Source of the DNA: Anaerolineae bacterium
GTDB taxonomy: Bacteria > Chloroflexota > Anaerolineae > Epilineales > Epilineaceae
Assembly (NCBI GenBank): GCA_038913135.1
Contig: JBCLES010000011.1
Coordinates: forward strand, 3,673 to 67,672
DNA: 64,000 nt
Reading direction: 5' to 3'
The position numbers and the translations under genes are program-made. Below are positions 59,513 to 63,000 of the stretch, in pieces; position 1 is the first letter of the stretch; every line of letters starts with the position of its first letter. The notes below the pieces were generated by a model that saw nothing but the letters and a program-made list of their open reading frames with translations, was not told the DNA's origin and did not search any database.

Positions 59513-59854
59513 TTGGCCGACGACATGGTCATCTTCAGCCGTACATTCGACATGCTCGACTGGCTGCTGCCCAAAGGCGAGAGCTTTCCAAGGACCTATC
59601 GGAACACGGTCACGCAGCGGATGATGGATTCCGCGCTCGACTTCCACGAGGAGCTGAACGCGGCACGCAACCAGGGTGGGAGCACGCGGCAGCGGCATCT
59701 CCGCAGCGCAAGCGCCCACCTCGATTCGTTGCGACTATACCTGCGCTTGGCGCAGCGTTGGGGCTGGATCACGCCGGGCCAGCACCGACACGCCAGCGGC
59801 ATGCTCGCCGAAATCGGGCGCCTGCTCGGCGGCTGGCAACGCGCCAAAGAGTGA
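59513..59854 (+). CDS. avd: DGR accessory variability determinant Avd (four-helix bundle)
   Basis: 113 aa, basic: [44 protein letters not shown]. Confidence 0.92.
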
Positions 59855-60092
59855 GGCGCCTCGCGGCCCGTGGGCCAGGGAGGCGCCTCGCTTGAATATG
59901 TGCCCGGCGGTGGCCCCGGAAGGCCGACCGCGCGGACGGGACGAGCCTGCGCCATCTCGATACCTTCGCCTCGGCCCGCGAACCGTGGTCGGCGGGCAAT
60001 GCCGGAAGCCTTACCCTTGCCTGCGTCCCAGGACGCTCCAGGGGGCCGGCTCGCAACGGGCGGCATTTCACCCGCGCCTTCGAAGGGGGACA
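59853..60092 (-). ncRNA. Structured region resembling the TR-to-RT spacer of DGR RNA
   Basis: GC-rich stems (GCCCGC...GCGGGC; two GAGGCGCCTC palindromes at 59853-59862 and 59880-59889) between a VR-like repeat and the RT; role inferred from position and recalled similarity. Confidence 0.45.
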
Positions 60093-63000
60093 GAGGTGTG
60101 GGACGCGCAAACCAGCCGAAACCCGTCGTACGTGAACCGTACGGCAGGTAAACCCCCGCTGCGGACCGCCGCGCGGGCGCCGAGCCCTGAAGAGATCCAA
60201 GACCCGCCCCGCAACACCCGCAGGCAGCCGGCGTCAGCGCCGACCTCCTCGCGCCCGTCGGCGGAATCGTACGGGTAAGCGAAGTCGGGTGCCTGGGAAT
60301 CTCGCCCCCAAAGGCTTAGCGTCCACTCCCAGACGTTGCCTGTCATGTCGACCAGGCCCTCGGGCGTCCGGCCGGCAGGAAAGACGTCGATCGGCGTGGT
60401 GCCTCGAATGTGCGTCTTATACGTGTTGCAGGCAGCCGCATCAAAGTCCTTCCCGTATGCGAAGTCTCGACCCTTCAGACCGCGACAAGCGGCTTCCCAC
60501 TCGACTTCGGTCGGCAGACGATAGTTCCGGCCGATCTTGGCCGAAAGCCAGGCGCAGTACGCTCGCGCTTCGTACCACGACACGCCGACCACGGGTTGGG
60601 CCGGACTGTTGTAGCGCGGATTGGTCCACAAATGCGGTATGGAGTATTGCTCGGATGGATACCAGTCATCGAGCTGGGCTTCGAGAGCTTCCTCGTCGAG
60701 GCGGCGGAACCAATCGACCCAATCATAATGTGTCTCCGGCAGCCCGGCATTGGCCTCGCGCCACCTCCCGAATCCGTCATCATCCTTCGGGTAACGCGCC
60801 CAATCGTCTCGCTGCCACTGCTTAGCCGGCTCCACGATGGTCGGGTCGCCGAGCCGCCAGGCCTTCGCATCGTCCGTTTCCCACCAGCCCTCATCGTCGT
60901 AGCCGCCGTCTTCCACAAAGCAGCGATACTCGGCGTTCGTGATGGGGAAGCGGCCGATTTCGAAGGGGGCGATGCCCACCGTTCCGACCGGGCGCTTGTC
61001 CGCCCAACCATCTTCGGTACCGATCGGGTACCGTCCGCTAGGGATCGGGACCATCGGCGTGACAAGGTGGCTGAGTCGGCCGTCCGCGGCGCGCACGGTC
61101 TCAAAGCGGTCGTCACCGAGCTCGCCCAGGGCGTTGGCGGCGTCGATGCGGGCCCGTAGATCCGCGTGTTCGTCGTCGCAGCGTTCTCTGAGCAGGCGTC
61201 GGAGTTCGGACGCCGTCGCCTCTGGAACTTCAGCGCCAGGCTCAACGGTACAGCGCGCGGCAAGCGGCAGGTTGGTTTCGGCAAGCGCCATGACGAAGGC
61301 GTCTGCATTGCTCGTCATGGCCGCGGCGAGGCGCATCGTGACTTCCCAGCCGGTCTGTTCGAGGCCTGGCAGCGGGTCTCCGTGCGCCAGACCCGCCATC
61401 GTGTGCGCCAGCGTCTCCGCGACCTTGTCCTTGTGCCATTCGCTGCACGCCAGCTGCGGCTCGGGCTCCGCGGCCAAGACGCGCCCGGCGAAGAACTCCT
61501 GCATAAGTTGATGGTAGAAGCGCAGCTGCTCTTGCCCGCTCGTGGAGTCGAAGGATAAGTCGAGCACGCCGATCGAGTACCCCGCCCGCAGGATTTGCTC
61601 GCGCTGCGCGTCGTCGAAGCCTTCACCCAACAGAGCCGGCGCAGCGTCATAATCGACGACAATCTGCTGGCCGGCGCCGATGGTCGTCTGCATTCCATGG
61701 GCCAATCGCGCCAGCGCACCGACCAAAGGCCCGCGAGTCGGAAGTGTGTGGCCCCGCATCTGCGCCAAGCGTGCTCGGTCCAATGGGTGGAGGAGGTCAT
61801 TGGAGAAGAGTTACTGGTTGTCCCTCATGATCTCGCGCAGCATCGATTGCCGCACGAAGCCTGCGAACAACGCCGCGCGCCCCACTGGAACTTCGCCATC
61901 GTCGCCGACCTGGTCGACCAAAAGCCTGAGGTAGTACGGCGTCCGATAGATGTCGATCTGCCCACTTTCGCGAATAGCATTCCAGAGCTTGGAAGCCAAC
62001 TCAGGTCGGTAAACGTCGAGGAAGTTCCGGATCTGTTCGTCGACCAGGCGCTTGACCAGTACGTGCGGTACGCGCAGCGCATCCGATGACAGGAACGTAC
62101 TGTAATCGAGGCTCCGGCAAGAGATGATGACGCGGATAAGTGGGTGATCGCGATACAGTGTATGCAGGTCGTCGCGCCAGGCCTTGACGCGATCCTCGTA
62201 GCTCGGCCGCGCGCCACCGTAGGGTATCTCGTTGAGCGCATCGAGCAGCAGGATCATGGGTTGGTCGTCCAACAGCGTCTCGAGCGGCGGCATCTTTGTA
62301 TGAGCAGCCTTCCAACTTTGGGCCAGCCAGTCCTTTGGCTTGACTGCCGCATCCCGATGCTCCGCCAGTGACAGATAGAACGGCAGAAGAGCGGCCGCGC
62401 CGCCTTCTACAGGGCCTGCCGCCGCGGCGTCCGGATCGGCGTCAGCCCAGCCTAGAGCAAGACACGCCAGTTCGATCTCGATGCGGCGCAAGAGCGTTGT
62501 CTTGCCGGCGCCGGGTTCGCCCAGGAGCACGAAGACGGGATTTTGCGCTCCCGCCGCGCGTACGACTTGGCGCAGATCGTTATAGTCGCGCTCCTGTTCG
62601 CTCCAGCGCATCTGGGCGCTCTCGCCCTTGTCGACAAACAGTCCCAGGCGCGTGAAGCGGCGCAAGTCCTCGCCACGACCGAGGAGATGCGGCTCCCGCC
62701 AGTTAGCGATCCGCCGCAGTCGATACTGTTCCGCGGTGCCTGGGTCGCTCGTGCGGAGGGCTTGCGATTCGTCATCGGACAGCTCGATCATCGGACCATC
62801 CGATCGTACGCGGATCAGGAGCGCTTCTAGTTCGTCGGGGCCGAGGAGCGCGTCGATTGTGCCGCGCGGTGGGCGCTTGCGTATCGCAGACAGATCGGCG
62901 TGGTATGCCGTGACCGCCGGGTCGTTCAGCACGTGCGTGACCAGATCGTTCATCCGGCCGCCGCGGCTCAAGAGGTTGATCATGTGCCGCCAGACCTCGC

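What the first reader, a model, noticed from the sequence alone, without database searches (positions are those of the whole stretch)
59853..60225. No template repeat: VR2 occupies the TR position and runs into a spacer-like RNA region
Seen: I found no third, AAC/AAT-rich copy of the repeat in the window. Neither VR can template the other: VR1 has A where VR2 does not at 10 sites, the reverse holds at 4, and neither has A at 2. VR1 ends in TCCCCCATC plus a small hairpin, whereas VR2 continues TCCCACACCTCT... into a 240-bp structured region leading towards the RT. Inference: recombination or assembly collapse within the invariant GGGTTTCGGCTGGTTTGCGCGTCCC fused VR2 to the TR 3' flank. That leaves a frozen DGR, one fed by a remote TR, or one where a coding gene end now acts as template.
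Basis: partly seen in the sequence, partly recalled or inferred. Interest (0 to 1): 0.75.

Follow-up and report, generated by a model that had tools for sequence, protein, structure and literature searches.

The report
DGR that lost its template repeat
This is a bacterial targeted-hypermutation cassette whose template copy is missing because it has merged with the neighbouring variable repeat, so its intact enzymes have nothing proper to copy; this is an ordinary way for such elements to die, unless the assembly collapsed the two repeats.

Summary
The window and its 77%-complete genome contain only two copies of the 133-nt repeat. Eighty loci with related reverse transcriptases show the normal layout of this clade: target-VR_A, a gap of about 150 nt, TR, a spacer of about 250 nt, avd on the opposite strand, RT, then an inverted VR_B. 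This layout is known as architecture B3. In the window, VR2 is VR_A, but its last bases and everything downstream are the TR's own 3' flank and spacer (83% identical to the closest relative). One repeat unit of about 290-320 nt is therefore missing, with the crossover inside window 60100-60126. I favour a real deletion that left the element frozen (about 0.6). In support, VR1 was not copied from the hybrid, target 2 carries an in-frame TAA, the genome holds other DGR wrecks, relative L065 has an analogous fusion, and the identical fused protein is recorded on a second, longer contig. Assembly collapse (about 0.27) could not be tested because no reads were available. Earlier notes of this scan report similar fusions in other genomes. 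The case is ordinary decay and of low to moderate interest.

The parts
54076..58308 (+). Target gene 1 (1410 aa): Trypsin_2 + AAA_16 (STAND-like NTPase) + C-terminal FGE-sulfatase/CLec-fold domain. The frame is uninterrupted.
   Evidence: ORF list; Pfam hits at 3.1e-22, 2.3e-10 and 6.9e-46.
58157..58289 (+). VR1, in the position of VR_B of the clade layout, with a VR-type (IMH-like) tail CCCCCATC.
   Evidence: Inverted-repeat pair I1; tail compared with relatives' VRs.
58309..58323 (+). Hairpin downstream of VR1 (6-bp stem, 3-nt loop). The same hairpin follows both VRs of L009.
   Evidence: Fold (the energy alone is not significant, z = -0.48); conservation.
58392..59501 (-). DGR-type reverse transcriptase (369 aa). 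The frame is intact and the YVDD motif is present.
   Evidence: Pfam RVT_1 at 2.1e-15; 57-70% identity to 80 RTs, 57 of which have a detected TR upstream; translation.
59513..59854 (+). avd (113 aa), divergent from the RT with 11 bp between the two start codons.
   Evidence: Pfam bAvd at 67.2 bits (cut-off 40); NCBIfam DivGenRetAVD at 78.6 bits (cut-off 80). The same divergent arrangement occurs in 75 of 80 relatives.
59854..59889 (.). Palindromic GC-rich hairpin directly after the avd stop codon. It is probably a terminator shared by avd and the convergent TR-spacer RNA (inference).
   Evidence: Sequence; the last helix in the fold; the equivalent block is present in relatives.
59855..60092 (-). 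Spacer: the conserved non-coding RNA region that follows the TR in relatives. Here it follows the hybrid repeat. The conserved core is 59911-60030, the covarying stem-loop is 59974-59997, and the invariant ATGGCGC is at 59949-59955.
   Evidence: 83% identity to the L009 spacer (225/272); 47-sequence alignment; 7 of 15 predicted pairs have compensatory changes; no Rfam family matches.
60093..60225 (-). Hybrid repeat ('VR2'). The body 60127-60225 is VR-type (VR_A of target 2). The crossover zone is 60100-60126 (27 nt identical in VR1). The tail from 60099 downward is TR-type (IMH*-like, CCCACACC).
   Evidence: The last VR-specific base is G at 60127 and the first TR-specific base is A at 60099.
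60068..61783 (-). Target gene 2, distal part (571 aa; FGE-sulfatase/CLec fold). Its last 10 codons (HTSVPLRRRG) are read from the former TR tail and spacer, in place of the native C-terminus (SPIS in the L009 homologue).
   Evidence: Pfam at 1.3e-46; translations; alignment to P0002 residues 415-992.
61811..61813 (-). In-frame TAA that splits target 2 into a NACHT part and a sensor part. The homologue in L009's contig is one 992-aa protein.
   Evidence: One 1054-codon frame with a single stop. The two halves align to P0002 residues 1-407 and 415-992.
61814..63232 (-). Target gene 2, proximal part (473 aa): EAD1 + NACHT NTPase.
   Evidence: Pfam NACHT at 1.5e-07 and EAD1 at 2e-07.

Best explanation
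This is a diversity-generating retroelement of the known layout TR-(avd)-RT with two flanking targets. A deletion of about 290-320 nt between two direct repeats, VR_A at the end of target 2 and the TR about 150 nt downstream, removed the native VR_A tail, the gap and the TR body. The crossover lay in the 27-nt block that all copies share (window 60100-60126). The product is a hybrid: target 2's variable sequence joined to the TR's own 3' tail and spacer RNA. No adenine-rich template is left, so the RT and Avd genes are intact but have nothing proper to copy. Target 2 can no longer receive cDNA because it lost its VR-type tail, and VR1 is no longer rewritten. The element is frozen and starting to decay. 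Shown: the anatomy, the homology of each flank and the absence of a third copy in the assembly. Inferred: that the deletion exists in the cells and not only in the assembly, and that the element is inactive.
For: (1) Clade layout. The avd gene is divergent and upstream of the RT in 75 of 80 related loci. Of the 62 loci with more than 1150 nt upstream, 49 have the VR_A-to-TR tandem. (2) The window's VR2 tail and the following 272 nt match the TR tail and spacer of relatives, 83% to L009. VR2's end is 592 nt from the RT start, against a median of 587 nt for TR ends. (3) Upstream, the repeat is continuous with a genuine target coding sequence, 58% identical to L009's target up to the repeat. It is therefore VR_A on the 5' side. 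(4) No third copy exists in the window or in G000. (5) Signs of real decay. Target 2 has an in-frame TAA. The same genome carries other DGR remnants: on C141 a VR plus hairpin is joined directly to spacer nt 31-102, C64 holds an orphan spacer core, C169 holds spacer, avd and a VR-like repeat without an RT, and C65 holds a partial RT with a stop. (6) A natural precedent. L065, titled as a chromosome-level record, has a target ORF fused to the TR with the crossover near the 5' end. (7) The identical 541-aa protein, including the fused C-terminus, is recorded on 2 contigs. The longest is 193,871 nt, longer than this contig of 75,874 nt, so a second assembly gives the same junction. (8) The longest exact stretches shared by the repeat copies are 32 nt or less. 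This is shorter than the final k-mers that I recall as usual for metagenome assemblers, so the junction should need supporting reads (inference).
Against: No reads could be examined because no run was listed, so the junction rests on assemblies alone. The two contigs that carry the protein may come from the same reads, and I could not learn more about them (one search did not complete). RT, avd, spacer and target 1 show no damage. That fits a very recent deletion but fits an artefact in an active element equally well. The genome is only 76.9% complete. The assembler and read type are unknown to me. Only 1 of 62 relatives (L065) shows a comparable fusion, so such fusions are rare in assembled genomes.
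Confidence: 0.6

Rival explanations
1. Assembly collapse or misjoin. The real genome has the full VR_A - gap - TR arrangement, and the assembler or a contig-merging step jumped from VR_A to the TR flank through the shared 27-nt block. The DGR would then be complete and possibly active.
For: The junction lies exactly in a block shared by all repeat copies. The source is a fragmented MAG of 190 contigs. RT, avd, spacer and target 1 are all intact. DGR variable regions are heterogeneous in populations, which disturbs assembly (general knowledge).
Against: The shared exact blocks are 32 nt or less. At least 51 related loci, many from short-read MAGs to judge by their contig names, assembled the tandem correctly. 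The identical fused protein is recorded on a second, longer contig. Other signs of decay, the TAA in target 2 and the remnants elsewhere in the genome, do not depend on this junction.
Confidence: 0.27
2. The deletion is real but the hybrid still works as a template. RNA running through the end of target 2 into the intact TR tail and spacer is reverse-transcribed by RT-Avd. The cDNA, mutable only at the 10 remaining adenines, can home to VR1, so a coding gene end doubles as the TR.
For: Everything 3' of the crossover that relatives conserve is retained: the TR-type tail, the spacer core and the covarying stem. In the Bordetella phage system, as I recall from the literature, the spacer and the TR 3' end are what the enzyme needs. 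L065 shows a hybrid that keeps most template adenines and sits next to an intact RT and avd.
Against: VR1 has A where the hybrid has a non-A base at 10 sites. It differs from the hybrid at 2 more sites where neither has A. These include the 3'-most sites, which homing would convert first. No transfer from the hybrid to VR1 is therefore visible. The sequence that normally lies upstream of the TR is gone. Only 10 adenines remain in the hybrid.
Confidence: 0.07
3. A matching TR lies elsewhere in the genome, in the unassembled 23%, and feeds VR1 in trans, as described for some loci of Thiohalocapsa PB-PSB1.
For: Trans use of a TR from another locus is documented (passages of the preprint 10.1101/2023.09.22.558884, read). 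The genome is 76.9% complete and has at least one other intact DGR, on C56.
Against: No third copy is found in 3.45 Mb. The C56 TR matches VR1 over only about 25 nt and differs at non-adenine sites. In the 57 relatives where a TR was found, it lies upstream of the RT (median 587 nt). Here that slot is filled by the hybrid.
Confidence: 0.04

Closest known systems
DGR cassette architecture B3, TR-(avd)-RT (Wu, Zimmerly et al., Nucleic Acids Res 2018, PMC5758913; passages read)
   Same: The core order is the same: the TR position, then avd on the reverse strand, then the RT. Targets have C-terminal VRs, the tails are of IMH and IMH* type, and a GC-rich hairpin follows the VR.
   Different: The TR itself is absent. 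Its slot holds a VR/TR hybrid that forms the end of a target gene.
DGR loci of Thiohalocapsa PB-PSB1 that diversify STAND-NTPase/CLec 'antigen sensor' proteins, some lacking a TR or RT (Dore et al., PNAS 2024, PMC10907252 and its preprint; passages read)
   Same: The targets are NACHT/STAND NTPase proteins ending in a CLec/FGE-fold VR. One genome holds several DGR loci, some degraded and one with a missing TR. Structural variants occur within populations.
   Different: In the passages I read, degradation is attributed to transposons and MITE-like repeats. Here no mobile element is involved, and the TR was removed by a crossover with the adjacent VR.
Bordetella phage BPP-1 DGR (mtd-VR, avd, TR, brt), the prototype (recalled; IMH/IMH* summary read in PMC5758913)
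   Same: A VR-type tail marks the acceptor and a differing TR-type tail marks the donor. A spacer RNA after the TR is part of the template RNA. Mutagenesis is adenine-specific.
   Different: The gene order and strands differ, the target fold is the FGE-sulfatase type, and the donor is lost. BPP-1 reconstitution work reports that TR-VR homologous recombination is negligible in its assay (passages read). That work does not address deletion between tandem copies.
Locus L065 (record titled as a Sedimenticolaceae chromosome), a related DGR with a target-TR fusion
   Same: The clade and layout are the same. A long target-like ORF runs into a repeat with a TR-type tail and spacer, and there is no separate VR_A.
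   Different: The crossover is near the 5' end of the repeat, so most template adenines survive and the hybrid could still serve VR_B. In the window the crossover is at the extreme 3' end, so no template information is left.

Membership tests
Diversity-generating retroelement (DGR) | Reverse transcriptase of the DGR lineage | tested here: met
   Pfam RVT_1. The RT is 57-70% identical to 80 RTs, and 57 of those have a detected adenine-specific TR/VR pair upstream. YVDD and the LTSQFWSN stretch are present in the translation. That these motifs are DGR-typical is recalled. No DGR-specific RT model exists in NCBIfam; the best hit is the group II intron RT, below its cut-off.
Diversity-generating retroelement (DGR) | Accessory protein Avd | tested here: met
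   Pfam bAvd at 67.2 bits against a cut-off of 40. NCBIfam DivGenRetAVD at 78.6 bits, just under its cut-off of 80.
Diversity-generating retroelement (DGR) | Variable repeat at the 3' end of a target gene, in a CLec/FGE-sulfatase fold | tested here: met
   Both repeats lie in the last 45 codons or so of FGE-sulfatase domains.
Diversity-generating retroelement (DGR) | Template repeat whose mismatches to the VRs fall at template adenines | tested here: not met
   No third copy in the window or the own genome. Neither copy can template the other (10/4/2). My TR/VR filter finds no adenine-biased pair in window 52001-64000.
Diversity-generating retroelement (DGR) | Distinct acceptor (IMH) and donor (IMH*) tails, and a hairpin after the acceptor | tested here: met
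VR1 has the VR-type tail and hairpin. The hybrid has the TR-type tail.
Diversity-generating retroelement (DGR) | Ongoing diversification (VR heterogeneity in the population, cDNA) | not testable with these tools
   No sequencing run was listed.
Architecture B3, TR-(avd)-RT | Order and strands: TR, spacer, reverse-strand avd, RT | tested here: inconclusive
   Spacer, reverse-strand avd and RT are in place at the clade's distances. The TR slot is occupied by the hybrid.

The most novel reading that the evidence does not exclude
The VR/TR crossover may be more than decay. It could be a way in which a DGR rewrites its own template with a selected variant. The hybrid keeps the donor tail and spacer, so the end of target 2 would serve as a low-adenine template that copies the chosen target-2 specificity into target 1, with only 10 positions still mutable. 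L065 would be an earlier stage of the same process. A TR+ allele might also persist in part of the population, making template loss a population-level switch.
Probability: 0.07. Interest if true: 0.7.

Novelty: new member of a known kind. Interest (0 to 1): 0.3.

Why it matters
In this DGR layout, the tandem placement of a variable repeat about 150 nt upstream of its template is a built-in weak point. A single crossover removes the template and freezes both targets. Recognising the hybrid by its TR-type tail and spacer stops annotators from reporting 'DGRs without a TR' or mis-assigning a VR as the template. It also gives a simple test (PCR, or reads across one junction) for whether a population still diversifies its NACHT-type sensor proteins. 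The case itself is ordinary. TR-less DGR loci are in print, and this scan has notes of similar fusions in other genomes. The by-products may be of more use than the finding. One is a conserved, covarying spacer RNA core for this clade with no Rfam family. The other is a second natural fusion (L065) that keeps most of its template.

Tried and rejected
- Reads: the look-up of sequencing runs on window 57800-61000 listed no run. The artefact question stays open.
- Metagenome scan with a degenerate spacer pattern: 3 loci. Two were chance matches inside unrelated genes. One (L091) was a canonical relative similar to L021. No same-strain contig was found.
- Family-level genome search: 17 genomes, and the nearest RT is 70% identical (G012, likely the same locus as L009). 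No close relative is available to show the ancestral state.
- The listing of cluster members, to learn more about the second contig that carries the fused protein, did not complete because the database was off. It was not repeated.
- Rfam: no match in 58000-60500 at E<=1.
- Thermodynamic support for a structured spacer: none (z = +0.21). The VR1 hairpin is also not significant by energy alone.
- The idea that the C56 DGR could supply the template was rejected. Its TR matches only about 25 nt of VR1.
- The idea that VR2 is the true TR, mutated in place, was rejected. The repeat is the in-frame end of a target coding sequence homologous to L009's target up to the repeat.
- An inversion between VR1 and VR2 cannot create or remove a TR. 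This was reasoned from the layout, and no tool was needed.
- My first run of the pair finder returned nothing because of an unsupported BLAST gap setting. It was fixed.
- Literature: three searches found no paper describing a VR/TR crossover deletion. They cover only open-access full text. I read only passages of the papers cited and did not look at supplementary tables (for example those of Wu et al. 2018 and Dore et al. 2024), which may list such loci.
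Full report
Anatomy. Around the finding the window holds the following parts.
- Target gene 1 at 54076-58308 (+), with Trypsin_2, AAA_16 and a C-terminal FGE-sulfatase fold.
- A reverse transcriptase at 58392-59501 (-).
- avd at 59513-59854 (+), which diverges from the RT with 11 bp between the two starts.
- 238 nt of non-coding DNA at 59855-60092.
- Target gene 2 at 60068-61783 (-), FGE-sulfatase fold, preceded by a NACHT/EAD1 ORF at 61811-63232 (-).

The two repeat copies are 58157-58289 (+) and 60093-60225 (-). 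They are 133 nt long and 86% complementary.

Checking the observation. The two invariant 25-mers each occur exactly twice in the window allowing up to three mismatches, with none expected by chance. A BLAST of VR1 against the whole own assembly (190 contigs, 3.45 Mb, 76.9% complete) at E<=10 finds only these two full copies. The other hits cover at most 32 nt of the 5' end. A script counts 18 differences between the copies. Sixteen are in the body: 10 with A only in VR1, 4 with A only in VR2, and 2 with A in neither. The other two are in the 3' tail.

What the clade normally looks like. A scan of species-representative genomes returned 80 loci whose RTs are 57-70% identical to this one.
- In 75 of the 80, an avd homologue lies upstream of the RT on the opposite strand. 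The 5 without a hit are L018, L023, L026, L072 and L082, four of them on short or cut contigs.
- I wrote a pair finder: self-BLAST that keeps pairs in which at least 80% of mismatches are A in one copy. It flags pairs in 58 of the 80 loci (one of them, L084, is a spurious 55-nt match).
- With the RT on the + strand, the layout is: target A with VR_A (+), a gap (median 153 nt, range 75-292, n = 51), the TR (+), a spacer, avd (-), the RT (+), and in 29 of the 51 tandem loci an inverted VR_B about 100 nt past the RT.
- Of the 62 loci with more than 1150 nt upstream of the RT, 49 show the VR_A-to-TR tandem. Five show a TR without an upstream VR. Eight were not flagged.
- I inspected six of those eight. 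L014 has a TR but no VR within the locus. L066 has a tandem pair with 18 of 26 adenine-type mismatches, below my filter. L031 has a tandem cut by the contig start. L065 has a fusion (described below). L026 and L073 have no TR. For L082 and L084 I saw only target-like tblastn hits and did not inspect them further.

This layout is architecture B3, TR-(avd)-RT, of Wu et al. 2018 (PMC5758913, passages read).

Where the window departs from that layout. In every relative printed, the TR ends in a CCCACA-type tail and each VR ends in a CCCCCAT-type tail, often followed by a GC hairpin.
- The window's VR1 has the VR tail and the same hairpin as L009's VRs (58309-58323).
- The window's VR2 has the TR tail. 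The 272 nt from there to the avd stop are 83% identical (225/272) to the TR-downstream spacer of L009.
- VR2's end lies 592 nt from the RT start. The median TR-end to RT-start distance is 587 nt (n = 57).
- On its 5' side the repeat is continuous with a real target coding sequence, which aligns at 58% identity to residues 415-992 of the 992-aa target on L009's contig (P0002) right through the repeat.

The copy is therefore VR_A on the left and TR flank on the right. One repeat unit plus the gap is missing, about 290 nt by clade medians and 319 nt in L009. The last VR-specific base is G at 60127 and the first TR-specific base is A at 60099. The crossover therefore lies in the 27 nt at 60100-60126, which are identical in VR1. 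As a consequence, target 2 now ends in ten codons read from the old TR tail and spacer (HTSVPLRRRG) instead of the native SPIS-type end.

The spacer. It has no Rfam match, and its single-sequence fold is no better than shuffles (z = +0.21). An alignment of the 120-nt core from the window and 46 relatives shows invariant blocks, including ATGGCGC. The consensus structure has 7 of 15 predicted pairs with compensatory changes. The clearest is the stem-loop at window 59974-59997, for example one pair with 28 A-U and 16 G-C. The ten relatives whose spacers lacked my anchor motif were left out of this alignment. The window's spacer is thus an intact member of a conserved RNA element. 'Structured' is supported by covariation in part of it, not by folding energy.

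Real deletion or assembly collapse. This is the open point. No sequencing run was listed, and a metagenome scan found no same-strain contig. The indirect evidence leans towards a real deletion.
- The exact stretches shared by the repeat copies are 32, 25 and 26-27 nt. This is shorter than the final k-mers that I recall as usual for metagenome assemblers, so the junction should need reads that carry it (inference).
- At least 51 related loci, many on contigs with short-read assembler names, were assembled with the tandem intact.
- The identical 541-aa gene product, fused C-terminus included, is recorded on two contigs. The longest is 193,871 nt, whereas this contig is 75,874 nt. Because the same short gene call is recorded, the upstream stop is probably shared too. 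I could not find out whether that assembly is independent (one search did not complete).
- The locus shows other damage. Target 2 is a single 1054-codon frame interrupted by a TAA at 61811-61813, and its halves align to residues 1-407 and 415-992 of the uninterrupted homologue.
- The same genome holds several DGR wrecks. On C141 a VR and its hairpin are joined directly to spacer nt 31-102. C64 has an orphan spacer core. C169 has a spacer 3' part, avd and a VR-like repeat but no RT. C65 has a partial RT with a stop.
- L065, titled as a chromosome-level record, has a long target-like ORF running into a repeat with a TR tail and spacer and no separate VR_A. Among its first five differences from VR_B, three show a non-A base in the hybrid (VR_B has A at two of these). 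All eight later differences have A in the hybrid. Its crossover therefore lay near the 5' end.

Against a real deletion: RT, avd, spacer and target 1 are undamaged, the MAG is fragmented, and the second contig may derive from the same reads. I put a real deletion with a frozen element at about 0.6 and an artefact at about 0.27.

Function after the fusion. If the deletion is real, target 2 has lost the acceptor tail and cannot be rewritten. The hybrid keeps everything that relatives conserve 3' of the crossover, so it could in principle be reverse-transcribed. However, VR1 carries A at 10 sites where the hybrid does not, and differs from it at 2 more non-adenine sites. These include the 3'-most sites, which homing would convert first. 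No hybrid-to-VR1 transfer has left a trace. A trans template is unlikely: there is no third copy in 3.45 Mb, and the TR of the intact C56 DGR (layout avd-TR-RT) matches VR1 over only about 25 nt.

Comparison with what is known. DGR loci with missing TRs or RTs, trans use of templates and within-population structural variants are described for Thiohalocapsa PB-PSB1, where the targets are also STAND-NTPase/CLec proteins. In the passages I read, the degradation is attributed to transposons and MITE-like repeats (PMC10907252 and its preprint). BPP-1 reconstitution work states that TR-VR homologous recombination does not account for its reporter repair (passages). Three full-text searches found no paper describing loss of the TR by a VR/TR crossover. 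I read no supplementary files.

Earlier notes of this scan report the same kind of fusion in other genomes: e1-3770324, e1-4412201, e1-2053800 and e1-2132926. These are unchecked AI notes. They did not serve as evidence for this locus, but they show the pattern is recurrent and lower its novelty.

Verdict. The locus is a B3-type DGR whose template repeat has been merged into the adjacent variable repeat. It is most likely a recently frozen, decaying element, and an assembly collapse is not excluded. The kind is known and interest is low to moderate.

Noticed in passing
window 61811-61813 (minus strand), within 60068-63232: Target 2 is one 1054-codon NACHT + FGE-fold frame broken by a single in-frame TAA. 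The homologue on L009's contig (P0002, 992 aa) is uninterrupted across this point.
   Followed up: yes
window 52124-52515 and 63752-64000 (continues to about 64061 on the contig): A direct repeat of about 390 nt (89-95% identical) brackets the 11.3-kb DGR island. The left copy covers the 5' end and upstream region of a gamma-glutamyltransferase gene (50812-52308, minus strand), so the right copy is a duplicated gene start. This suggests the island was inserted or duplicated there. No integrase was seen and no tRNA was found in 50000-64000.
   Followed up: partly
own genome contig C141, about 760-1035 (not in the window): Another DGR remnant. A target VR with a VR-type tail and hairpin is joined directly to a sequence homologous to nt 31-102 of the window's spacer, after which homology stops. 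There is no TR, avd or RT on this 3.1-kb contig.
   Followed up: partly
own genome contigs C56 (about 12980-15040), C65 (about 5370-6520), C169 (L003, 1-950), C64 (about 4100-4173): C56 holds an apparently complete second DGR with the same-strand layout VR - avd - TR - RT and its own AAC-rich TR. C65 has a partial RT with a stop. C169 has a spacer 3' part, avd and a VR-like repeat but no RT. C64 has an orphan spacer core.
   Followed up: partly
L065:4737-5700: In this related DGR a long target-like ORF is fused to the TR. The 5' sites of the repeat are VR-like, the rest is a pure adenine-rich template, and the tail and spacer are TR-type. It is a natural 'template inside a gene end' that could still serve VR_B.
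   Followed up: partly
window 59911-60030 (minus strand) and the equivalent stretch of 46 related loci (alignment A1): The RNA core downstream of the TR in B3-type DGRs is conserved, with an invariant ATGGCGC and a covarying stem-loop. It matches no Rfam family and could be made into a covariance model to find TR-spacer modules.
   Followed up: partly
L026:4900-6000 and L014:4900-5500: Two other forms of decay occur among relatives. L026 keeps VR_A and VR_B but has unrelated genes where the TR, avd and the RT 5' end should be. L014 keeps the TR, spacer, avd and RT, but only the hairpin remnant of a VR flank lies upstream of the TR, and no VR is within 6 kb.
   Followed up: partly
window 29556-30753: A family of 5 diverged 60-nt direct repeats, 150-370 nt apart. 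It is probably a repeated protein motif within a large gene.
   Followed up: no
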